Source of the DNA: Candidatus Azambacteria bacterium
Lineage (GTDB): Bacteria; Patescibacteriota; Minisyncoccia; GWC2-36-17; WO2-46-25
DNA: 62,901 bases
Assembly (NCBI GenBank): GCA_016234725.1
Contig: JACRAK010000005.1
Location: forward strand, 1-62,901
Direction: 5' to 3'
The translations under genes were made by a program, and so were the position numbers. This document shows, piece by piece, positions 1-57,551 of this stretch; position 1 is the stretch's first letter; every line of letters begins with the position of its first letter. The notes under the pieces were generated by a model. It was not told where the DNA came from. It saw only the letters and a list, made by a program, of their open reading frames with translations, and ran no database searches.

Positions 1-111
1 AAGTTGATTTACACGGAGAATTTTGATACAAGAAAAGAAGCAGTGAAAAGAGAGAAAGAGTTGAAGAGCTCGCGCGGGAGAACTTTTATCAAGAGTAAAT
101 TTCCGGCATAA
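1..111 (+). CDS. GIY-YIG nuclease family protein, C-terminal fragment (5' end outside window)
   Basis: Open frame from base 1 to TAA at 109-111: KLIYTENFDTRKEAVKREKELKSSRGRTFIKSKFPA. This resembles the C-terminus of small GIY-YIG (UPF0213-type) proteins. Confidence 0.5.
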   Translation, partial: KLIYTENFDTRKEAVKREKELKSSRGRTFIKSKFPA

Positions 112-267: not shown

Positions 268-294
268 GGAGAGGTGGCTGAGTGGGTTCAAGGC
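268..294 (+). pseudogene. Duplicated 5' fragment of tRNA-Ser (acceptor plus D-arm only)
   Basis: ggagaggtggctgag (268-282) is identical to the first 15 nt of the tRNA-Ser at 341. It then diverges, and no anticodon arm or T-arm can be folded. Confidence 0.45.
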
Positions 295-340
295 AAATAA
301 CTTTGTTTTGAACGGGCGCTCCTTGCATTGGATCCATAGC

Positions 341-429
341 GGAGAGGTGGCTGAGCGGCCGAAAGCACCACACTGCTAACGTGGCAAGCCCGTTAAACGG
401 CTTCGCGGGTTCAAATCCCGCCCTCTCCG
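341..429 (+). tRNA. tRNA-Ser (anticodon GCT), type II with long variable arm
   Basis: Acceptor GGAGAGG/CCTCTCC, anticodon loop CTGCTAA, variable arm GCCCGTTAAACGGC, T-arm GCGGGTTCAAATCCCGC. Confidence 0.9.
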
Positions 430-520
430 CTATGGATCCATACAGCGCCCCCGGCTTTCGCAAAACTGCGGCAAGAAACAAAACGCTACAATTTTACTAT
501 TTCTTTCTTGACAACAAAAA

Positions 521-556
521 CATAAAAGCGCTCTCGTGGCGCTTTTATGTTTTTTG
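521..556 (+). terminator. Rho-independent terminator after the tRNA-Lys/Ser pair
   Basis: Stem CATAAAAGCGC/GCGCTTTTATG followed by a T-run. Confidence 0.6.
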
Positions 557-580
557 GTGTAAAATAAAAAAGATTTTACT

Positions 581-1114
581 ATGACTCTGAAAAAAAACGA
601 CATCGTTGATCTCCGTAAAGTAGCGCAAAGCGCACCGCAGGAACAAACGCCTGCGCCTGGCTCCATGAGTTGGGAAGCGGAAGAATTCGCGTATCACCCT
701 AAAGACCTTCAATGGTTTTTGGTAGGCGGGATACTAGCGCTTGGCATATTTGCCAGCCTGCTCATTCTCAAAAACATGTTCGGCGCAGTGACGATACTGC
801 TGTTCATGTTCATTATGTATTTGTACGCAACGAAAAAACCGGATATGCTCTCTATCGTTGCTGACGGGCGCGGGATCGCTGTCAACAATAAGCGCATCCC
901 TTATTCTGATATCACCTCATTCTGGGTTTTGTATGAGCCGCCGGTAAAAGACCTGATCATCATACAAAAAGCGAAATTCACTCCCAAGACGATCATCCCG
1001 CTCGGGCAAGCAAACCCCGTGGAGCTCCGCGCCCTTTTACTTGCCAATGCGATCATAGAAAAAGAAGAAGAAGAAACGCTGACCGATATTCTTGCGCGTC
1101 GCTTTGGATTTTAG
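581..1114 (+). CDS. Hypothetical membrane protein (2 predicted TM helices)
   Basis: 177 aa ORF with ATG start. Hydrophobic stretches LVGGILALGIFASLLIL and AVTILLFMFIMYLYA. No recognisable catalytic motif. Confidence 0.55.
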   Translation: MTLKKNDIVDLRKVAQSAPQEQTPAPGSMSWEAEEFAYHPKDLQWFLVGGILALGIFASLLILKNMFGAVTILLFMFIMYLYATKKPDMLSIVADGRGIAVNNKRIPYSDITSFWVLYEPPVKDLIIIQKAKFTPKTIIPLGQANPVELRALLLANAIIEKEEEETLTDILARRFGF

Positions 1115-1128
1115 ACGCACAACACACC

Positions 1129-1200
1129 GCCTCCGTAGTGAAATGGATATCACGCCGGTCTTCGAAACCGTCGTTGGGGGTTCGAATCCCTCCGGAGGCA
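1129..1200 (+). tRNA. tRNA-Arg (anticodon TCG)
   Basis: Acceptor GCCTCCG/CGGAGGC, anticodon loop CTTCGAA, T-arm GGGGGTTCGAATCCCTC, discriminator A. Confidence 0.85.
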
Positions 1201-1252
1201 CAAAAGTTTTTTCGCTACCCTTTATGGGTAGAGAAAAAACATTATGATCTTT

Positions 1253-1399
1253 GGGATTCGAAGGGTATTTCAAAAATATGAACTGCTTCATGTTTTTGAA
1301 AACCCGGGCTCTGGAGGAGAAATTTTGCATGTGCGTTGCGCGGCAAAATTTCTGGGGAAGAGGAATCCTCGCCTGCCGGCAGGCGGGCCTCCGAAGGCA
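1253..1399 (+). repeat. tRNA-linked structured element, copy 1 (cognate to tRNA-Arg-TCG)
   Basis: Starts GGGATTCGAAGGGTAT, where ATTCGAA is the reverse complement of this tRNA's T-loop TTCGAAT. Conserved hairpin tttcaaaaatatgaa-CTGC-ttcatgtttttgaaa. Ends with a degenerate copy of the tRNA 3' end (gaatcc...cctccgaaggca), interrupted by the 16 nt palindrome CGCCTGCCGGCAGGCG. Confidence 0.6.
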
Positions 1400-1410
1400 C
1401 CATAATCCCA

Positions 1411-2955
1411 TCACCCCTTCCTGGCTTTTGGGGTAACCCAAAAGCCCATATACTTGCCGAGCATGAGGCGCGTCTGCGCATCGAGCCCCGGCAACGAACC
1501 GAATATAATGATCGTAAGGAACATCAGCGGCCACTGAAGCACGATAAGCGCATACTTCCACCTCCCGTATTCGGGCGGCCGCGGCGGCAAGATAAGCACG
1601 GAAAGCAACGCCGACGTCACCACACCGATCATGGAAAGGGTCATGATGTATTTCGTCACCAGCGGGAGGTTATACGAAAGCTGGGTAGCGTTGAACGCCT
1701 CGCCTCCGAGATACAGCGGCAGCCACCCGAGCAAGAAAATAATGAGCGCGTTCGTCGCCCACGAGTGAAACCCCTCGATGATCACGAATCCGAATTTCAC
1801 TTTCTTCCAAAAATCGATCTTTTTGTTCTTGAAAAACCCGAAAAGAAAATAGGGGACATTTTCCACGCCGTACCCCCACCGCCGCTGCTGCTTATACTGG
1901 TTCACCAGCGTCTGCCAGAACGTATCGGCAACATTCGCATCCATGGAAACGGGATAATACATCGGCTCCACCGCGTAGTCGCCGTCGTAGCGTAAAAAAC
2001 ACTGCCAAAAGATACGGGAGTCCTCGCTCACCATGTTCGGCTGCCAAAAATCGACATCGCACAGTGCGGTCAGGGACATGGAATGCGACGAGAATGTCGT
2101 CATGCGCTCGGGGCGTTCTTGCTGAAGCATGTGCCAGAACGTTGCTGAAAACGCGATGACACGCGCGACCGCAGGCGCATGCCAAATGTTGTTGATATAA
2201 AACGGCACGGGCTGAAAACTCACCCGCTCGGGCCGAGGCACCGATAGATACACATACATCAGCCGCGCAAAATATTCCGCCCATATCACCGTATCGATAT
2301 CAAACGCCGATACGATGACTTTTTTATGGTCTATGCCAAGCGCGTCTATAATATCCTCCTTCGCCTTTCTTCCTGCAAAGTTGATGTTGGACCCTTTACC
2401 CGCCATCTCCCCTTCGATGTCTTTAGGATGCGTCGTGATGACAAAACGGAAAAATGTTGTACCGAATTCTTCATGGGCTTTCTCTGCAATGGCGCGCGCT
2501 TCTTCCCCCGCGCGCTCTTCTGTCGCGAGCACGACGATCATTTTCTCTTTCGGATAATTCGCCGCGGCAAGCGCACGGAGCGACGCACCAACCACTTCCC
2601 AGCTTTCTTTATACATCGGAAGCAGGATGAGATGATGGTACTCCTCCCACCCCGGCTTTTCCTCTTTCAACTTTTCGTGCCACGCCACGCCGATGTTCGC
2701 GCGCATTTTCTTGAACGCCGAGCGTAAATGAAGCGAAAGAAATACGGTTTTTAAAAACCAATAGATATCGAATGCGATGACAAAAAACGCGATGAAAACG
2801 GGCGTCAGCCACGCCAACAGCATCGTAAGCGCAAGCGTGCCCCACGACAACGCACCGGGCACTATTTCAAGCACACGGTACCACCGGCGCTCGCGCGCAT
2901 TGGTAAGATGAGATGCTCTCCCAATAGTAAGATAATAGTATTCGTCGGAGATCAT
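1411..2955 (-). CDS. Membrane-embedded family 2 glycosyltransferase (processive, cellulose/chitin-synthase-like)
   Basis: 514 aa with N- and C-terminal TM helices. Central GT-A-like region with SAFDIDT and the QxxRW-type motif QQRRWGYG. Confidence 0.7.
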   Translation of the reverse strand: MISDEYYYLTIGRASHLTNARERRWYRVLEIVPGALSWGTLALTMLLAWLTPVFIAFFVIAFDIYWFLKTVFLSLHLRSAFKKMRANIGVAWHEKLKEEKPGWEEYHHLILLPMYKESWEVVGASLRALAAANYPKEKMIVVLATEERAGEEARAIAEKAHEEFGTTFFRFVITTHPKDIEGEMAGKGSNINFAGRKAKEDIIDALGIDHKKVIVSAFDIDTVIWAEYFARLMYVYLSVPRPERVSFQPVPFYINNIWHAPAVARVIAFSATFWHMLQQERPERMTTFSSHSMSLTALCDVDFWQPNMVSEDSRIFWQCFLRYDGDYAVEPMYYPVSMDANVADTFWQTLVNQYKQQRRWGYGVENVPYFLFGFFKNKKIDFWKKVKFGFVIIEGFHSWATNALIIFLLGWLPLYLGGEAFNATQLSYNLPLVTKYIMTLSMIGVVTSALLSVLILPPRPPEYGRWKYALIVLQWPLMFLTIIIFGSLPGLDAQTRLMLGKYMGFWVTPKARKG

Positions 2956-3035
2956 GGAAACAACAAGAAATCTGTTGATTTTATACTAAATATAGTATAG
3001 TATGACATCCGTTCGCGAGAAAGCAACACTCGCAT

Positions 3036-3107
3036 GGCGCCATCGTCTATCGGCTAGGACACCGCCCTTTCAAGGCGGTAAGACGGGTTCGACTCCCGTT
3101 GGCGCTA
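3036..3107 (+). tRNA. tRNA-Glu (anticodon TTC)
   Basis: Acceptor GGCGCCA/TGGCGCT (G1-U72 wobble), D-stem GTCT/GGAC, anticodon loop CTTTCAA, T-arm ACGGGTTCGACTCCCGT. Confidence 0.85.
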
Positions 3108-3127
3108 CTGGTTTTTTATTATATTAA

Positions 3128-3275
3128 GCGGCAACGGGAATCGAAGGGTATTTCAAAAATATGAACTGCTTCATGTTTTTGAAAACCCGGGCTCTGGAGG
3201 AGAAATTTTACATGTCCTGAGCTTGTCGAAGGACGGCAAAATTTCGGGGGAAGAGGACTCCCGTTGGCGCTACTA
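3128..3275 (+). repeat. tRNA-linked structured element, copy 2 (cognate to tRNA-Glu)
   Basis: The 5' end gcggcaacgggaatc pairs 13/15 with the tRNA 3' end. Same conserved core as copies 1 and 3. The 3' end gactcccgttggcgctact (3257-3275) is a perfect 19 nt direct repeat of 3091-3109. Confidence 0.7.
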
Positions 3276-3357
3276 CTGCACAGAATCTAGAAACTAGAAT
3301 TTAGAAAATCGGAGCGGATATTGGTTTTTCTAGATTCTATTTTCTAGATTCTATCCT

Positions 3358-4386
3358 ATGCGTATTCTTGCTATTGAAACCTCGTGCGACGAAACGGCCT
3401 GTGCGGTAGTGGATGTCACGGGGCGAACCGTGCCACGATTCACCGTGCTCTCAAATATCATCTCCTCGCAGGTGAAACTCCACGCGCCGTATGGCGGCGT
3501 GGTGCCTACACTCGCCTCTAGAGAGCATCTTAAAAACATTCCGCATGTCTTTCAAAAAGCGCTTCGGGACGCACGCACGACCATGGATGAGATCGACGCG
3601 ATCGCCGTCACCTGTGCCCCCGGGCTTGTCATCGCCCTGCTTATCGGCGTGAGCTTCGCGCGCGGGCTCGCCTACGCCTCCGGCAAAAAAATAATTCCCG
3701 TGCATCATATTGCCGCGCACATATATTCAAACTGGCTTTCACATGAAAAAATCGCATTCCCGCTTTTAAACATCGTGGTGTCGGGAGGACATACGGAACT
3801 AGTGCTTATGAAGCGCATCGGCACGTATGCGCTTTTAGGCGAAACGCGCGATGATGCCGCGGGCGAGGCGTTTGATAAAGTCGCAAAAATGCTCGGCCTC
3901 GGCTACCCGGGCGGCCCTATTATTTCTAAACTCGCGCGCGGCGGCGATGCAAGTCGCTATATGCTCCCGCGTCCCATGCTTTCAAGCGGCGATCATGACT
4001 TTTCGTTTTCCGGTCTCAAGACCGCCGTCATCCATTGTGTAAAAAAACATCCAGAGATCAAGAAGGACAAAACCGCGCGCAGGAATTTTTGCGCGTCATT
4101 TGAACAGGCGGTTGCTGATGTCATCACTGAAAAAACGATCCGTGCGGCGCGCGAATATCGCGTAAAGACCATTGCGCTGTCAGGAGGCGTTTCTGCAAAC
4201 AAACGCCTGCGCGAACAGCTTGCAAATACGATAGCCGCACGGCTGAATGCTGTCGCGTTTATCACCCCTGATGCCGGCTTTTCCACCGATAACGCCGCGA
4301 TGATCGCGGTCGCAGGATATTTTAATCGCACACACGCGACCACATGGAAAAACATCGATGCGTCCGCGCATGCGCCGCTAGCATAA
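3358..4386 (+). CDS. tsaD: tRNA N6-adenosine threonylcarbamoyltransferase TsaD
   Basis: N-terminus MRILAIETSCDETACAVVD and overall Kae1/TsaD (ASKHA fold) similarity. 342 aa. Confidence 0.9.
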   Translation: MRILAIETSCDETACAVVDVTGRTVPRFTVLSNIISSQVKLHAPYGGVVPTLASREHLKNIPHVFQKALRDARTTMDEIDAIAVTCAPGLVIALLIGVSFARGLAYASGKKIIPVHHIAAHIYSNWLSHEKIAFPLLNIVVSGGHTELVLMKRIGTYALLGETRDDAAGEAFDKVAKMLGLGYPGGPIISKLARGGDASRYMLPRPMLSSGDHDFSFSGLKTAVIHCVKKHPEIKKDKTARRNFCASFEQAVADVITEKTIRAAREYRVKTIALSGGVSANKRLREQLANTIAARLNAVAFITPDAGFSTDNAAMIAVAGYFNRTHATTWKNIDASAHAPLA

Positions 4387-4416
4387 AGAGAAGTCATAGT
4401 GCTACAATAATTCTGT

Positions 4417-6603
4417 ATGTCCATGCCTGAAAAGACAGGAAAATTCAATTTCCCGTACGACCCCAAAAAGGTCGAGCACGAGATCTACACGCGCTGGGAA
4501 AAGAGCGGTTTTTTTAATCCTGATAATTTACCACAACGACACACCGAACCGTATTCTATCGTGCTCCCGCCTCCCAATGTCACCGGCACGCTCCACATGG
4601 GGCACGCGGCGATGCTTGCGATCGAAGATATTTTGATCCGCTTTGAGCGCATGCGCGGAAAGAGAACGCTCTGGCTCCCCGGCACCGACCACGCCGCGAT
4701 CGCCACGCAATCAAAAGTTGAGGAGATCCTCTCGAAAAAAGAAAAAACGACGCGGCATGCTCTCGGGCGCGAGGCGTTCCTCAAACGGGTGAATGAATTC
4801 GCCCAAGAAAGCCACGATACTATTGTTTCCCAAGTGAAAAAAATGGGCTCATCGGTGGATTGGAGCCGCGAAGCGTATACGCTGGATGAAGCGCGCCACC
4901 ACGCAGTATATGTCGCGTTCAAAAAAATGTATGACGCGGGGCTTATTTCCCAAGGCAAACGCATCGTCAATTGGGACCCGAAAGGGCAGACGGTCATTTC
5001 AGACGACGAAATCATATACATGGAAGAAAAAGCGAAATTCTATTATTTCACATACGGCCCGTTCACCATCGGCACGGCGCGCCCGGAAACGAAGTTCGCC
5101 GACAAATATGTCGTCATACACCCTGATGATGTGCGGTATGCAGAATACGAACACGGGCAGACGCTGGAAGTTGAATGGATCAACGGCCCCATCACCGCGA
5201 CCGTCATTAAAGACGCCTCAGTGAACCCGGAGTTCGGCACCGGCGCCATGACCATCACGCCGTGGCACAGCGCGGTTGACTTTGAGATGGCCGAACGCCA
5301 CGGACTAAAAGGAGAGCGGATCATCGACACATACGGCAAACTTCTCCCCATTGCGGGAGAATTTACGGGCATGAAAATAAAAGACGCGCGAGAGAAGATC
5401 GTCGAGAAACTCGCCGCAAAAGGGTTGCTCGTGAAAGCGGATGAGAACTACGTGCACAACGTGGCGACCGCAGAGCGCACAGGAGCCGTGATCGAACCGC
5501 AGGTAATGAAGCAATGGTTCGTGGCCGTCACCAAGGAATTCACGATCCCTTATTCCGAGATCCCCGGCATCCTTTCCGGTTCGCGCACCACGCTCAAAGA
5601 CATCATGCGCAAGGCGGTCGAAAGCGGCGCAACGCGCATCATGCCGGAACGGTTTGAAAAGGTCTATTTTCATTGGATCGACAACCTCCGCGACTGGTGC
5701 ATCAGTCGCCAGATATGGTTCGGTCACCGCATTCCCGTGTGGTACCGCGGCAACGAGATATACTGCGACGTCATCCCGCCTGAAGGCGAAGGATGGGAAC
5801 AAGACCCCGATACGCTCGACACGTGGTTTTCTTCGGGCTTATGGACGTTTTCCACGCTCGGCTGGCCGGAACACACCAAAGACCTCGTTGCCTACCACCC
5901 CACCGCGGTGCTTGAGACAGGATATGATATCTTGTTCTTTTGGGTCGCACGTATGGTGCTTATGAGCGGCTTCCATCTTGGAACCGTGCCGTTTAAAAAC
6001 GTATATCTCCACGGTTTGGTGCGCGACGAAAAAGGGCGCAAAATGTCAAAGTCGCTTGGCAACATCATCGATCCCGTCGACATGATCGAAAAATACGGCG
6101 CGGATGCAACCCGCCTCTCGCTTATCATCGGTGCCGCTCCCGGGAACGACACAAAACTCTCCGAAGAACGGGTGCGCGGATATAAGCATTTTGCCAATAA
6201 GATCTGGAACATAGCCCGTTTCGTGCTTGAAAATGGCGCGTCTGCTGATAATGTCATCACGCAGGAAGAAGACAAGAAGCTCATCGAAGAATTTGATGCT
6301 GTCGCCCGGAGAACCACCGCCCACATCGAAGCGTTCCGCCTCGATCTTGCCGCCGACGCGCTGTATCATTTTGTGTGGCACCGATTCGCGGATATCCTCA
6401 TTGAAGAAAGCAAGCCGATCCTCCGCGGCGATGACGCGAACGCCAAACACTCGCGCCGCGCAGCTCTTTTCGCGCTCCTTGTCGGCTCCCTGAAACTTCT
6501 CCACCCCTTTATGCCGTTTATCACCGAAGAAATATATGCCGGCATTTCATTGCCTGATAAAAAACTGCTTATGATAGAAGAGTGGCCAGCTAAACAAACA
6601 TGA
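4417..6603 (+). CDS. valS: Valine--tRNA ligase (short form lacking the C-terminal coiled coil)
   Basis: PPPNVTGTLHMGHA (HIGH region), KMSKSLGN (KMSKS), DTLDTWFSSGLWTFSTLGWP. 728 aa. Confidence 0.9.
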   Translation: MSMPEKTGKFNFPYDPKKVEHEIYTRWEKSGFFNPDNLPQRHTEPYSIVLPPPNVTGTLHMGHAAMLAIEDILIRFERMRGKRTLWLPGTDHAAIATQSKVEEILSKKEKTTRHALGREAFLKRVNEFAQESHDTIVSQVKKMGSSVDWSREAYTLDEARHHAVYVAFKKMYDAGLISQGKRIVNWDPKGQTVISDDEIIYMEEKAKFYYFTYGPFTIGTARPETKFADKYVVIHPDDVRYAEYEHGQTLEVEWINGPITATVIKDASVNPEFGTGAMTITPWHSAVDFEMAERHGLKGERIIDTYGKLLPIAGEFTGMKIKDAREKIVEKLAAKGLLVKADENYVHNVATAERTGAVIEPQVMKQWFVAVTKEFTIPYSEIPGILSGSRTTLKDIMRKAVESGATRIMPERFEKVYFHWIDNLRDWCISRQIWFGHRIPVWYRGNEIYCDVIPPEGEGWEQDPDTLDTWFSSGLWTFSTLGWPEHTKDLVAYHPTAVLETGYDILFFWVARMVLMSGFHLGTVPFKNVYLHGLVRDEKGRKMSKSLGNIIDPVDMIEKYGADATRLSLIIGAAPGNDTKLSEERVRGYKHFANKIWNIARFVLENGASADNVITQEEDKKLIEEFDAVARRTTAHIEAFRLDLAADALYHFVWHRFADILIEESKPILRGDDANAKHSRRAALFALLVGSLKLLHPFMPFITEEIYAGISLPDKKLLMIEEWPAKQT

Positions 6604-35102: not shown

Positions 35103-35173
35103 CGGGGTGTCGTATACCGGCAGTACGCCTGTTTTGGGAACAGGTAGACTGGGTTCAATTCCCAGCACCCCGA
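35103..35173 (+). tRNA. tRNA-Pro (anticodon TGG)
   Basis: Acceptor CGGGGTG/CACCCCG, anticodon loop TTTGGGA, T-arm CTGGGTTCAATTCCCAG, discriminator A. Confidence 0.85.
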
Positions 35174-35304
35174 CTGAGTGAAGTAAAGAGAGGTGCGGCG
35201 CGCAAACTGCTTTGCGCGCGATGGGAATTGAAGGGTTATGCTCTGTGCGCAAGCACGGCATAACCCCGGCCCGCAGGGAATTCCCAGCACCCCGACTGAG
35301 TGAA
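35174..35304 (+). repeat. tRNA-linked structured element, copy 4 (short variant, cognate to tRNA-Pro)
   Basis: GGGAATTGAAGGGT at 35223, where AATTGAA is the reverse complement of this tRNA's T-loop TTCAATT. Hairpins GCGCGCAAA-CTGC-TTTGCGCGC and TTATGC..GCATAA. 26 nt perfect direct repeat aattcccagcaccccgactgagtgaa at 35157-35182 and 35279-35304. Confidence 0.7.
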
Positions 35305-57282: not shown

Positions 57283-57356
57283 GCGAGTGTCGTATAGTGG
57301 CAATACCCCAGTTTTCCAAACTGGTGCCGGGAGTTCGATTCTCCCCACTCGCTCCA
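57283..57356 (+). tRNA. tRNA-Gly (anticodon TCC), CCA encoded
   Basis: Acceptor GCGAGTG/CACTCGC, anticodon loop TTTCCAA, T-arm GGGAGTTCGATTCTCCC, then T-CCA. Confidence 0.85.
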
Positions 57357-57400
57357 ATAAACACAAAGAGCCCTTCTGGGGTACTTTGTGTTTATACAGA

Positions 57401-57540
57401 GGGGAATCGAAGGGTATTCCAAAAATATGAACTGCTTCATATTTTTGGAAACCCGGACTCTGAAGGAGAAGCGACGCTTGTCATGAGCTTGTCGAAGGAC
57501 GCGGAGCTTCGGATGAAGAGGATTCTCCCCACTCGCTCCA
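57401..57540 (+). repeat. tRNA-linked structured element, copy 3 (cognate to tRNA-Gly)
   Basis: GGGGAATCGAAGGGTAT, where AATCGAA is the reverse complement of the T-loop TTCGATT. Perfect hairpin ttccaaaaatatgaa-CTGC-ttcatatttttggaa. 20 nt perfect direct repeat gattctccccactcgctcca at 57337-57356 and 57521-57540. Confidence 0.75.
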
Positions 57541-57551
57541 AGACCAAACCC

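What the first reader, a model, noticed from the sequence alone, without database searches (positions are those of the whole stretch)
57283..57540. Family of structured elements attached to tRNA genes, with ends tailored to the cognate tRNA (inverted T-loop copy at the 5' end, direct copy of the tRNA 3' end at the 3' end)
Four tRNA genes are each followed by a member of one element family, after a 26-52 nt spacer that usually contains a hairpin:
- tRNA-Arg-TCG (1129-1200), element 1253-1399.
- tRNA-Glu (3036-3107), element 3128-3275.
- tRNA-Pro (35103-35173), short variant 35174-35304.
- tRNA-Gly (57283-57356), element 57401-57540.

Copies 1-3 share about 100 nt of core sequence: GGGAATCGAAGGGTATTTCAAAAATATGAACTGCTTCATGTTTTTGAAAACCCGGGCTCTGGAGGAGAA...GAAGAGG.

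Three locus-specific features stand out.

1. The heptamer inside the leading GGG-NNNNNNN-GGG tracks the reverse complement of the adjacent tRNA's own T-loop.
- Arg: TTCGAAT versus ATTCGAA.
- Gly: TTCGATT versus AATCGAA.
- Pro: TTCAATT versus AATTGAA.
- Glu: TTCGACT versus AATCGAA (one mismatch).
- In the Glu copy the complementarity extends through the acceptor strand (13/15).

2. Each element ends with a direct repeat of the tRNA sequence from the middle of the T-loop to the 3' end.
- The repeat is 19, 20 and 26 nt perfect in three copies and degenerate in the Arg copy.
- In the Pro copy it includes 9 nt of 3' flank, so the duplication is genomic and not derived from mature tRNA.

3. Internal helices covary between copies.
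- tttcaaaaatatgaa/ttcatgtttttgaaa versus ttccaaaaatatgaa/ttcatatttttggaa, which changes U-A to C-G and U.G to U-A.
- gaaattttgc/gcaaaatttc versus gaagc/gcttc.

Inference, two possibilities:
- A miniature non-autonomous integrative element that targets tRNA 3' ends. The att-like duplication fits, but no integrase is present and the ends are customised per tRNA.
- A cis-encoded RNA that is co-transcribed with the tRNA. Its 5' arm could pair either with the genuine tRNA 3' half or with the downstream decoy copy, giving a possible tRNA-maturation switch.

I cannot match this to a described element class.
Basis: partly seen in the sequence, partly recalled or inferred. Interest (0 to 1): 0.85.

Follow-up and report, generated by a model that had tools for sequence, protein, structure and literature searches.

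The report
Guide-armed mini-inserts at tRNA gene ends
A previously undescribed family of 100-200-base, protein-less, structured DNA modules sits just behind tRNA and tmRNA genes of ultra-small (Patescibacteria/CPR) bacteria; each has an arm complementary to its own tRNA's T-loop and ends in a repeat of that tRNA's 3' end, and it comes and goes between close relatives like a tiny mobile element.

Summary
All four window copies (Arg, Glu, Gly, Pro) have the described anatomy. About 30 further copies came from metagenomes, one MAG contig from the genome collection, and syntenic relatives. They sit behind 15 kinds of tRNA and one tmRNA.

- **Arm:** it matches the reverse complement of its own T-loop perfectly in 22 of 27 copies (permutation mean 4.1, maximum 14).
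- **Fold:** the core is a three-way junction with strong covariation. The tRNA-sense strand folds better in 22 of 23 copies.
- **Databases:** no match in Rfam, phage, plasmid or viral collections, and none in six keyword literature searches.
- **Gain and loss:** syntenic relatives have clean empty sites (Glu in four loci, Gly in three, Pro in one), tandem arrays, and independently truncated remnants (Arg). The module is therefore gained, lost and dispensable.
- **Enzymes:** no integrase, transposase or reverse transcriptase was found in the window, and none recurs among 138 neighbouring ORFs.

Best reading (about 0.4): a non-autonomous insertion unit in the T-loop-to-3'-end attachment region. 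It carries a replacement tRNA 3' end and a target-complementary guide arm, and is moved in single-stranded form by an unidentified trans-acting activity. A host-serving tRNA-linked RNA is the main rival. I rate it a new variant of tRNA-targeting integrative elements, possibly a new class.

The parts
57283..57356 (+). tRNA-Gly(TCC). T-loop TTCGATT is at 57334-57340. The segment from nt 57 to the 3' end (+1), here called b1, is 57337-57357.
   Evidence: ARAGORN and Rfam tRNA; coordinates
57357..57395 (+). Gly spacer: a long terminator-like hairpin between the tRNA and the arm.
   Evidence: Sequence; terminator-like hit at 57370-57382
57401..57411 (+). Gly arm GGGGAATCGAA: the reverse complement of the T-loop plus the T-stem 3' strand.
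57412..57454 (+). Gly P2 hairpin (GGGUA...ACCC, bulged A, CUGC loop).
   Evidence: 10 pairs with compensatory changes
57455..57520 (+). Gly core, 3' part: GGA, P3 (CUCU/AGAG), purine-rich internal loop (GAAGGAG / GGAUGA), variable P4 hairpin (57469-57509), and the right end ...GAAGAG.
57521..57541 (+). Gly downstream direct repeat (b2) of tRNA nt 57 to CCA+1, 21 nt perfect. It pairs with the arm to form P1.
1129..1201 (+). tRNA-Arg(TCG); b1 is 1184-1201.
1206..1400 (+). Arg element. Spacer hairpin 1206-1240, arm GGGATTCGAA 1253-1262, core 1263-1362. Degenerate b2 1363-1400 is interrupted by the GC palindrome at 1371-1384.
   Evidence: (121 bits). Orthologues in L035 and L038 have an intact b2.
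3036..3108 (+). tRNA-Glu(TTC); b1 is 3091-3109.
3110..3274 (+). Glu element, absent at this site in four syntenic relatives (a gain or repeated precise loss). AT-rich spacer 3110-3126, extended arm AGCGGCAACGGGAATCGAA 3127-3145, core 3146-3255, b2 3256-3274.
   Evidence: (120 bits). The site is empty in L035-L038, and the native flank aligns after b2.
35103..35174 (+). tRNA-Pro(TGG); b1 plus 9 nt of flank is 35157-35182.
35183..35304 (+). Pro short-form element. Flank-like 35183-35196, CUGC-loop hairpin 35197-35219, arm TGGGAATTGAA 35222-35232, P2 35233-35266, linker 35267-35278, b2 35279-35304.
   Evidence: (27.9 bits). Orthologues in L043 and L045 show compensatory changes; the site is empty in L044.
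341..430 (+). tRNA-Ser(GCT) without an element. This is an empty site relative to L001, where the same Lys-Ser arrangement carries two tandem elements.

Best explanation
**What it is.** A non-autonomous (protein-less) insertion unit specific for the T-loop-to-3'-end region of tRNA and tmRNA genes.

**The unit.** It is inserted between T-loop nt 56 and 57. It consists of:
- a copy of the tRNA from nt 57 to the 3' end;
- a spacer, usually a terminator-like hairpin;
- an arm complementary to the T-loop and T-stem 3' strand;
- a structured core that ends ...AGAG.

The gene therefore stays intact. The displaced native 3' end remains downstream as the direct repeat.

**Shown here.**
- The anatomy.
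- The arm/T-loop correspondence.
- The three-way-junction fold with covariation.
- The sense-strand bias.
- Gain, loss, tandem and remnant states among relatives.
- No recombinase gene found in the window, and none recurrent among the neighbouring ORFs scanned.

**Inferred.**
- The arm acts as a base-pairing guide or attachment-site former in a single-stranded form, either top-strand DNA or an RNA.
- Pairing with TTC|GA..CCC places the element's right end (AGAG|), which sits at the branch point of the junction, against T-loop position 56|57.
- A trans-acting host or other-element enzyme, of unknown type, catalyses strand exchange.
- Homologous recombination between the repeats then causes precise loss, tandem reshuffling and homogenisation of cores.
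For: **Family and anatomy**
- The same architecture is found in about 35 copies behind 15 tRNA species and one tmRNA.
- The arm tracks its own T-loop and T-stem.
- It co-varies with T-stem differences between orthologous Gly loci, by reading the window and L024 sequences.

**Empty versus filled sites**
- Glu is filled in the window and empty in L035-L038. The native flank resumes after the downstream repeat.
- Pro is empty in L044 and filled in L043, L045 and the window.
- Gly is empty in L039-L041.

**Unit structure**
- Tandem units have different spacers (L035 long + short; L001), which fits a unit of b1, spacer, arm and core.
- In L001 the tRNA-proximal copy ends CCA. The downstream copies end CTC, and the window's empty orthologue ends CTA.
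- Where the downstream repeat has decayed, the arm still matches the tRNA (L009, L014, L022, L028, win_Arg).

**Dispensability and cargo**
- Truncated remnants occur in L036, L037 and L038.
- In L028 a cupin gene lies between tRNA-His and the arm.

**Structure and strand**
- Covariation supports the fold.
- The sense strand is more stable in 22 of 23 copies.

**Precedent**
- T-loop attachment cores that run to the tRNA 3' end are established for integrases (PMC1762012).
Against: - No enzyme was identified. The window has no integrase, transposase, HUH or RT gene, and none recurs among 138 ORFs next to other copies.
- No circular or free form, and no copy in viral, phage or plasmid collections.
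- Retargeting to a new tRNA needs the arm and the carried 3' end to change together. I cannot explain how that happens.
- Cores at orthologous loci are more conserved than neighbouring proteins. Window versus L038 Arg core is about 95% identical while TsaD is 76% identical. Short-form orthologues keep structure by compensatory change. That looks like in-situ purifying selection, as expected of a host-useful RNA.
- At the Gly locus the native spacer is not found after the repeat.
- GC skew suggests the element's sense strand is the leading-strand template in this window. This goes against a simple IS200/IS605-type lagging-template mechanism.
Confidence: 0.4

Rival explanations
1. A host-serving structured RNA encoded in the tRNA 3' trailer, or as a small RNA. 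Its arm pairs alternately with the genuine tRNA 3' half and with the downstream copy. It would act in tRNA maturation, quality control or decoy function.
For: - The MFE of tRNA-Gly plus element swaps partners: the tRNA 5' half pairs with the downstream copy, z = -6.65.
- The sense strand folds better and has more G.U pairs.
- Structure is conserved with compensatory changes at orthologous loci across genomes 76-91% identical in proteins.
- Several copies have no terminator between tRNA and arm (win_Glu, L022, L015, L003 second Met).
Against: - Only 4 of 9 tRNAs in the window carry it.
- Sites are empty in close relatives and truncated remnants are tolerated.
- Most spacers are terminator-like hairpins with T-runs.
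- There is no -10-like enrichment upstream of the arm (8 of 27 versus 5.9 in shuffles, P = 0.22).
- The acceptor part of the downstream copy has decayed in about 9 of 23 copies while the core is intact.
Confidence: 0.25
2. The module [spacer-arm-core] is inserted just downstream of the tRNA by a transposition-like or template-switch event. That event itself duplicates the target from T-loop nt 57 to a variable point past the 3' end, giving a long target-site duplication. The element does not carry its own tRNA 3' end.
For: - In the window Glu copy (site empty in four relatives), Pro and L033, the two repeats are identical and extend 2 to 20 nt into the flank.
- In L043 and the window, the flanks of copy 1 and copy 2 resemble each other.
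- In L045 the native-like flank follows copy 1.
- This would make retargeting easy, because only the arm has to fit.
Against: - Most repeats stop within 1-3 nt of the tRNA end.
- Tandem units carry unrelated spacers (L035).
- In L001, copy 1 (CCA) differs from the downstream copies (CTC).
- Spacer hairpin 1 and the terminator after copy 2 are usually unrelated.
Confidence: 0.1
3. The modules are the conserved right-end (attR-proximal) parts of larger integrase-bearing genomic islands or prophages. They would be left behind after the interior was deleted.
For: - Larger DNA is associated with some copies.
  - A cupin gene lies between tRNA-His and the arm in L028.
  - L012 has an R-M methylase upstream of the same element that follows tRNA-Ser in L020.
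  - A copper-resistance cluster lies between two elements in L026.
- The tRNA/tmRNA 3'-end repeats are the classical island signature (PMC1762012; PMC3146451).
Against: - More than 25 copies have the same compact size and boundaries, which random deletions would not give.
- No recurrent integrase among 138 neighbouring ORFs, and none found in the window.
- No hit in phage, plasmid or viral collections.
- The core has RNA-like covariation.
Confidence: 0.1
4. An RNA-level mobile element, either intron- or ribozyme-like or a retroelement. The arm would be an internal guide sequence complementary to the ligated T-loop (3' exon start plus 5' exon end). The unit ends in G, and insertion would proceed by reverse splicing or target-primed reverse transcription.
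For: - The arm is complementary to the uninterrupted target TTC|GAxxCCC, the way group I IGS (P1+P10) or group II EBS guides are. This comparison is from my own knowledge.
- The right end is a conserved ...AGAG| placed at the junction branch point.
- The fold is strand-specific.
Against: - The core is only about 100 nt and the short form about 60 nt.
- No Rfam ribozyme or intron hit even at E up to 10.
- Pairing is continuous across the junction, with no splayed site.
- No RT in the window.
- An intact tRNA copy upstream makes splicing unnecessary.
Confidence: 0.1
5. Chance similarity among T-loops, or an assembly artefact.
For: T-loops have limited diversity. L001 contains a scaffold gap inside one unit.
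Against: - The permutation test gave 0 of 100,000.
- Copies occur in independent assemblies from JGI, ENA and NCBI.
- Covariation is strong.
Confidence: 0.01

Closest known systems
tRNA/tmRNA-integrating prophages and genomic islands with tyrosine integrases (T-loop sublocation), such as the mycobacteriophage Ms6 attP core and the Dehalococcoides ssrA islands
   Same: - The insert lies in the 3' part of a tRNA or tmRNA gene.
- The gene is kept intact.
- A direct repeat runs from the T-loop to the 3' end.
- Tandem arrays occur.
- tmRNA is also a target.
- Specificity is set by the T-loop sequence (PMC1762012; PMC3146451).
   Different: - The unit is 100-220 nt and has no integrase or any other gene.
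- It has a covarying structured core.
- It carries an inverted, target-complementary arm.
- One near-identical core serves many different tRNAs.
Non-autonomous derivatives of mobile elements (MITEs; cis-mobilisable elements, CIMEs, derived from ICEs)
   Same: Small, gene-less and multi-copy, with patchy presence among relatives. Presumably dependent on a trans-acting enzyme.
   Different: - There are no fixed terminal inverted repeats and no short fixed target-site duplication.
- The ends are tailored to each target.
- No autonomous parent is known.
IS200/IS605 elements and their PATE/REP relatives (single-strand 'peel and paste')
   Same: From my own knowledge of IS608:
- Activity is strand-specific, with subterminal hairpins.
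- A short guide 5' of a hairpin foot pairs with the left cleavage site, which lies in the flank.
- Here GAA, just 5' of P2, pairs with TTC, and CUCU pairs with the terminal AGAG.
   Different: - No TnpA or TnpB was found.
- The guide pairing is 10-20 nt, not 4.
- The unit carries a tRNA 3' end and leaves a long repeat.
- GC skew puts the sense strand on the leading-strand template.
Folded single-stranded recombination sites (CTXphi attP(+), integron attC)
   Same: From my own knowledge:
- Two inverted copies of a target-like site separated by a spacer fold into a duplex that mimics the chromosomal site.
- Integration uses one strand and host-type recombinases.
- Here b1 and the arm are such an inverted pair.
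   Different: The target is a T-loop, not dif or attI. There is no phage or cassette cargo. The recombinase is unknown, and the left half-site is not a duplex.
Nucleic-acid guides of mobile elements (group I IGS, group II EBS, IS110 bridge RNA, TnpB/IscB omega RNA)
   Same: An element-encoded segment is complementary to the target site. It differs from copy to copy while the scaffold is conserved.
   Different: No associated protein or ribozyme core was recognised. There is no Rfam hit. The guide overlaps the repeated segment rather than flanking it.

Membership tests
tRNA/tmRNA-integrating integrase elements (T-loop attachment site) | The insert is flanked by a direct repeat of the tRNA 3' segment, and the tRNA gene is kept intact. 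| tested here: met
tRNA/tmRNA-integrating integrase elements (T-loop attachment site) | The element encodes its own tyrosine or serine integrase. | tested here: not met
   The unit is 100-220 nt with no ORF. No integrase in the window, and none recurrent among 138 neighbouring ORFs.
tRNA/tmRNA-integrating integrase elements (T-loop attachment site) | Presence/absence polymorphism at the same site, with the native flank restored. | tested here: met
   Glu, Pro, Gly
MITE | Fixed terminal inverted repeats and a short target-site duplication of constant length. | tested here: not met
   The ends are target-specific, and the repeat is 8 to 39 nt and variable.
IS200/IS605 / PATE | Y1 HUH transposase (TnpA) in the genome, and insertion 3' of a fixed tetra- or pentanucleotide without duplication. 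| tested here: inconclusive
   No TnpA in the 63-kb window or the neighbourhoods. Whole genomes were not available. Insertion does follow TTC, but a long repeat is present.
Rfam RNA families, including ribozymes, introns, HEARO and tRNA-like RNAs | A score at or above the family gathering threshold. | tested here: not met
   Only tRNA hits at gathering. At E up to 10, only chance miRNA or snoRNA hits far below threshold.
tRNA intron (group I, or archaeal BHB type in the T-loop) | The intron interrupts the only copy of the tRNA and must be spliced. | tested here: not met
   A complete uninterrupted tRNA precedes every full copy.
Structured non-coding RNA (generic) | Covariation supports a conserved fold on one strand. 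| tested here: met
   Transcription itself is not testable with these tools.

The most novel reading that the evidence does not exclude
The module is a new class of programmable, nucleic-acid-guided mobile element.
- A scaffold of about 100 nt has a 5' arm that base-pairs with the T-loop and T-stem of a chosen tRNA or tmRNA gene.
- A three-way junction presents the element's 3' end at T-loop position 56|57.
- Strand transfer would be carried out by an unrecognised host enzyme or by the nucleic acid itself.
- The insertion stays harmless because a tRNA 3' end is supplied or duplicated.
Probability: 0.3. Interest if true: 0.9.

Novelty: new variant of a known kind. Interest (0 to 1): 0.78.

Why it matters
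- If these are guide-armed, protein-less insertion units, they would be the smallest site-specific integrative elements known.
- They would also be a natural example of target choice by base pairing at tRNA genes, in a lineage (Patescibacteria/CPR) whose mobile elements are poorly known.
- They offer a concrete route to an unknown recombination or strand-transfer activity: find what co-occurs with them.
- They explain partial tRNA 3'-end duplicates that can confuse tRNA and genomic-island annotation in CPR genomes.
- If they instead prove to be host RNAs, they would be a new tRNA-linked RNA class with tRNA-specific pairing. That would also be new.

Tried and rejected
**Database and collection searches**
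- Rfam at gathering and at E up to 10: nothing but tRNAs.
- Phage and plasmid BLAST, and two IMG/VR pattern scans: nothing.
- Six literature searches found no description.

**Tests on the window**
- Own promoter: the sigma-70 scan is at background. A -10-like box upstream of the arm is not enriched.

**Checks by eye (not tool tests)**
- Coding: SD-like GGAGGAG plus ATG gives an ORF only in the Arg copy. The Glu copy stops after two codons and other copies lack a start. Rejected.
- Hammerhead, HDV, K-turn and C/D-box likenesses: the core motifs do not fit. Left as 'purine-rich internal loop'.

**Ideas rejected on the evidence**
- Trans-splicing or 'tRNA 3'-end repair': the acceptor part of the downstream copy has decayed in about 9 of 23 copies whose cores are intact.
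- PBS-like tRNA priming: the arm covers nt 54-65, not the 3'-terminal 18 nt, and the repeats lack an added CCA.
- 'Inverted acceptor copy' in the Pro variant: retracted, because that sequence is flank-derived.
- A simple IS200/IS605 lagging-template expectation is not met.

**Limits**
- Four metagenome hits (L002, L004, L019, L029) were chance matches inside a coding gene.
- The CM found no further copies in the window beyond the four.
Full report

Yes. ARAGORN and Rfam find nine tRNAs in the window. Four of them are followed by the described module: Arg-TCG 1129-1201, Glu-TTC 3036-3108, Pro-TGG 35103-35174 and Gly-TCC 57283-57356 (coordinates).

At the reported locus:
- the T-loop TTCGATT is at 57334-57340;
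- a long hairpin spacer follows the tRNA (57357-57395);
- the arm GGGGAATCGAA is at 57401-57411;
- the conserved core runs to ...GAAGAG at 57520;
- GATTCTCCCCACTCGCTCCAA (57521-57541) repeats the tRNA from T-loop nt 57 through CCA+1.

Other repeats: Glu is 19 nt, and Pro is 26 nt including 9 nt of flank. The Arg repeat is degenerate and interrupted by a GC palindrome. The 28-nt core probe occurs three times in the window against zero expected.

**2. The family beyond the window**

- One pattern scan of species-representative genomes gave a single contig, labelled as a Saccharibacteria MAG (L001).
- One metagenome scan gave 33 loci. Of these, 29 are real and 4 are chance hits in a coding gene.
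- A covariance model built from 23 distinct copies (A2, R1) recovered all of them at 92-135 bits. It also found a divergent copy (L026:4057-4186) and the window's Pro variant at 27.9 bits, and no further copy in the window.
- Syntenic relatives, fetched through TsaD, VKOR and histidine-kinase homologues, added more copies and empty sites.
- Source names of the closest homologues are Patescibacteria and Candidatus Azambacteria.
- Targets seen: tRNA Arg, Glu (TTC, CTC), Gly, Pro (TGG, CGG), Ser (GCT, TGA), Met, Asp, Thr, Leu (TAA, CAA), Asn and His, plus one tmRNA gene (L034).
- A short form also exists: arm, GGG-hairpin-CCC, a 10-25-nt linker, then the repeat. It occurs at the window's Pro, its orthologues L043 and L045, after the long form in L035, and at a second tRNA-Met in L003. 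L016 carries a further variant.

**3. Anatomy**

RNAalifold and pair counting give a three-way junction:
- P1: the arm paired with nt 57/58-65 of the downstream repeat.
- An unpaired GAA.
- P2: a long hairpin GGGUA...ACCC with a bulged A. Ten pairs show compensatory change.
- GG(G/A).
- P3: CUCU/AGAG. It never varies, and its 5' half was fixed by my search pattern.
- A purine-rich internal loop (GRAGGAG / GGRKGA).
- A variable P4 hairpin.

The element's last bases, ...AGAG, abut nt 57 of the repeat at the branch point.

Overall, 94.5% of cells are paired, against 34.5-55% when partners are slid. There are 129 double-change cells against 41.5 in shuffles.

The tRNA-sense strand folds more stably than its complement in 22 of 23 copies (mean -51.9 versus -46.4 kcal/mol) and has about twice as many G.U pairs. 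The functional form is therefore single-stranded and of tRNA polarity, either an RNA or top-strand DNA.

Three orthologous short-form copies keep both hairpins through compensatory changes.

**4. The locus-specific ends**

- In 27 copies the arm's heptamer is the perfect reverse complement of the adjacent T-loop in 22.
- 78 of 81 variable loop positions match.
- 100,000 permutations of arms among tRNAs gave a mean of 4.1 and never more than 14 perfect heptamers.
- The complementarity usually runs 10-12 nt (T-loop plus T-stem 3' strand), including non-CCC stems such as L017 and L005.
- It reaches the acceptor strand in the window's Glu copy and in the L016 variant.
- Two divergent Ser elements share ATGAGAA instead of ATTCGAA. 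This leaves a tandem G.A/A.G mismatch, so tRNA-specific sublineages exist.
- The Glu arm's single heptamer mismatch (it complements TTCGATT, while the window has TTCGACT) is exactly the T-loop of the close relative L035.
- Where the downstream repeat has diverged, the arm still fits the real tRNA (L009, L014, L022, L028, win_Arg).

**5. Expression signals**

- Most spacers are hairpins followed by T-runs, so they look like the tRNA's terminator.
- A few copies have no hairpin (win_Glu, L015, L022, L003 second Met).
- Sigma-70-type promoter hits are at background.
- A -10-like box upstream of the arm is not enriched (8 of 27 versus 5.9 in shuffles).
- Transcription of the core is therefore neither indicated nor excluded.

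**6. Comparative genomics: gain, loss, decay**

| Genome or contig (loci) | Arg | Glu | Gly | Pro |
|---|---|---|---|---|
| Window | long | long | long | short |
| ERZ4903072, TsaD 90% (L035, L039) | tandem long + short | empty | empty | not sampled |
| Hain_H41 contig 476 (L015, L043) | not sampled | not sampled | long | short |
| Hain_H52 contig 79 (L041, L044) | not sampled | not sampled | empty | empty |
| Azambacteria MAG GCA_024654415.1 (L040, L045) | not sampled | not sampled | empty | short |
| L036 | truncated remnant | empty | not sampled | not sampled |
| L037 | truncated remnant | empty | not sampled | not sampled |
| L038 | intact, plus a second truncated arm and half P2 | empty | not sampled | not sampled |

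- The remnants in L036 and L037 keep the arm and the 5' half of P2. They have different breakpoints, so they arose independently.
- At the Glu site, the empty allele's flank in L038 (CTATATTGACAGAAGCTAGAA...) aligns with the window sequence after the downstream repeat (CTACTGCACAGAATCTAGAA...).
  - The window therefore carries 164 extra nt.
  - Because all four syntenic relatives are empty, this looks like a gain in the window lineage. The absence is shown; the direction is inferred.
- At the Pro site, the empty L044 flank equals the flank after the repeat in L043.
- At the Gly site, the 51-nt native spacer before VKOR is missing in both filled alleles. In L013 a 5.4-kb purL/purM-like segment lies between the repeat and VKOR. 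That locus has had additional events.
- The module is dispensable, patchy and subject to decay. Yet intact cores are very conserved: the window and L038 Arg cores differ at 5 of about 110 positions, while TsaD is 76% identical.
- Cores within one genome are near-identical and mosaic. The Glu core is Arg-like except for a Gly-like P4 tip. The Arg spacer hairpin of the window is homologous, with compensatory changes, to the second spacer of L035. Recombination and gene conversion among copies are therefore evident.

**7. What is the inserted unit?**

Two descriptions give the same sequence:
- (a) the unit is nt 57 to the 3' end, spacer, arm and core, inserted at T-loop 56|57, as for integrase attachment sites;
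- (b) spacer, arm and core are inserted after the tRNA, with a long duplication of the target.

In favour of (a):
- Tandem units carry unrelated spacers (L035).
- In L001 the proximal copy ends CCA. The downstream copies end CTC, and the window's empty orthologue ends CTA.
- Most repeats stop within a few nt of the tRNA end.
- The terminator after the repeat is usually unrelated to the spacer hairpin.

In favour of (b):
- Repeats extend into the flank (Pro +9 to +17, L033 +20).
- In L045 the native-like flank follows the proximal copy.

Gene conversion between the two repeats blurs the distinction. I prefer (a).

**8. Enzymes**

- Sixty window proteins scanned against Pfam are housekeeping: type IV pilus, ATP synthase, complex-I-like subunits, glycogen enzymes, TsaD and an aminoacyl-tRNA synthetase. 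None is an integrase, transposase, HUH enzyme or RT.
- Among 138 ORFs next to other copies, no such family recurs.
- Called genes in L035-L045 show none either.
- Any catalyst must act in trans. Whole genomes were not available to test co-occurrence.

**9. Mechanism**

- *Shown:* a gene-less unit occupies the T-loop-to-3'-end region of tRNA and tmRNA genes without inactivating them. It has a conserved sense-strand fold and a target-complementary arm. It is present at some syntenic sites and absent at others.
- *Inferred (about 0.4):*
  - The arm is a guide or attachment-site former.
  - In single-stranded form it can pair either with the proximal tRNA segment (12 bp including TTC:GAA) or with the downstream repeat (P1).
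  - Either pairing puts the left junction (TTC|G57) or the right junction (AGAG|G57) at the same place next to P2/P3.
  - That geometry suits strand exchange by a trans-acting recombinase or transposase.
  - Recombination between repeats gives precise loss and tandem shuffling.
- *Unexplained:*
  - How the arm and the carried 3' end are retargeted together.
  - Why cores are so conserved in situ.
- *Rivals:* a host-serving tRNA-linked RNA (0.25); target duplication by a transposition or template-switch event (0.1); remnants of integrase islands (0.1); an RNA-level intron, ribozyme or retroelement (0.1); artefact (0.01).

**10. Comparison with known systems**

- The direct repeat from T-loop to 3' end, the intact tRNA, tandem arrays and the tmRNA target are the hallmarks of integrase-mediated integration. 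Ms6's attP core lies in the tRNA-Ala T-loop, and changing it retargets the phage (PMC1762012). Dehalococcoides ssrA islands are a tmRNA example (PMC3146451).
- The defining integrase is absent, so this is not a member of that family, although it may work like one.
- By analogy with IS200/IS605 guide/cleavage-site pairing, CTXphi attP(+) or integron attC folded sites, and intron or bridge-RNA guides (all from my own knowledge), the arm is best read as nucleic-acid-based site recognition.
- None of those families' defining proteins or RNA cores was found. GC skew argues against a simple IS200/IS605 lagging-template mode.

**11. Verdict**

- It is not in Rfam, and none of six keyword literature searches found a description.
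- I classify it as a new, non-autonomous, guide-armed variant of tRNA-targeting integrative elements.
- There is about a 0.3 chance that it represents a genuinely new class of guided mobile element.
- Interest: 0.78.

Noticed in passing
window 1371-1384; L006 downstream repeat: A GC-rich palindrome, GCCTGC(C)GGCAGGC plus about 4 nt, is inserted at the same position (T-stem/acceptor boundary, nt 65/66) of the downstream tRNA-end repeat in two unrelated copies: win_Arg and L006_Pro. The Arg orthologues in L035 and L038 lack it.
   Followed up: partly
window 3218-3232 and 57484-57498; L045 3606-3620 (-): The motif TGAGCTTGTCGAAGG forms the tip of P4 in the Glu and Gly elements but not in Arg. It also occurs outside any element in L045, downstream of the Pro repeat. 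It may be a separate small hairpin insert that nests in other elements.
   Followed up: partly
window 268-340 and 431-445: - Just upstream of tRNA-Ser(GCT) lies a fragment starting GGAGAGGTGGCTGAG, identical to the first 15 nt of that tRNA.
- It looks like a pseudo 5' half.
- The tRNA is bracketed by complementary flanks (GGATCCATAGC ... GCTATGGATCC).
   Followed up: no
window 3280-3355; L038 about 3150-3225: Upstream of tsaD there are tandem TTTTCTAGATTCTA repeats plus an inverted TCTAGAAACTAGAA. These are conserved in the relative L038 and may be an operator or promoter region.
   Followed up: no
L026 4200-12700: A copper-resistance cluster lies between one element (after tRNA-Ser TGA) and a second element. 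The cluster includes CsoR, cupredoxin, a CopA-type ATPase, DsbD-like, DsbA-like and YtkA-like genes. The second element is preceded only by a degenerate tRNA 3' fragment.
   Followed up: partly
L013 (reverse strand) about 320-5500 after the Gly repeat; L012 1038-2657: - Extra DNA sits next to elements in some strains.
- In L013, purL-like (1303 aa) and purM-like genes lie between the Gly repeat and VKOR.
- In L012, an Eco57I/TaqI-type methylase lies upstream of the element that follows tRNA-Ser in L020.
- In L012 the join is exactly at the last 4 nt of the tRNA.
   Followed up: partly
L017 11375-11420: After the Glu repeat and a second, homologous terminator hairpin there is another arm-like GGAATCGAA followed by CCCGAAAGGGG. 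It may be a decayed second unit.
   Followed up: no
window 1-62901: GC skew is negative on the + strand across the whole window, and most genes are on the - strand. All four element-bearing tRNAs are on the + strand, probably head-on to replication. The three - strand tRNAs carry none (n is too small for a test).
   Followed up: partly
window 1-110; L001 527-1300 (-); L036 1759-2400: Small ORFs with no Pfam match sit among the Ser/Lys tRNA genes in relatives. The window begins with the C-terminal end of an ORF just upstream of tRNA-Lys. From memory these resemble homing-endonuclease-like genes; this was not tested.
   Followed up: no
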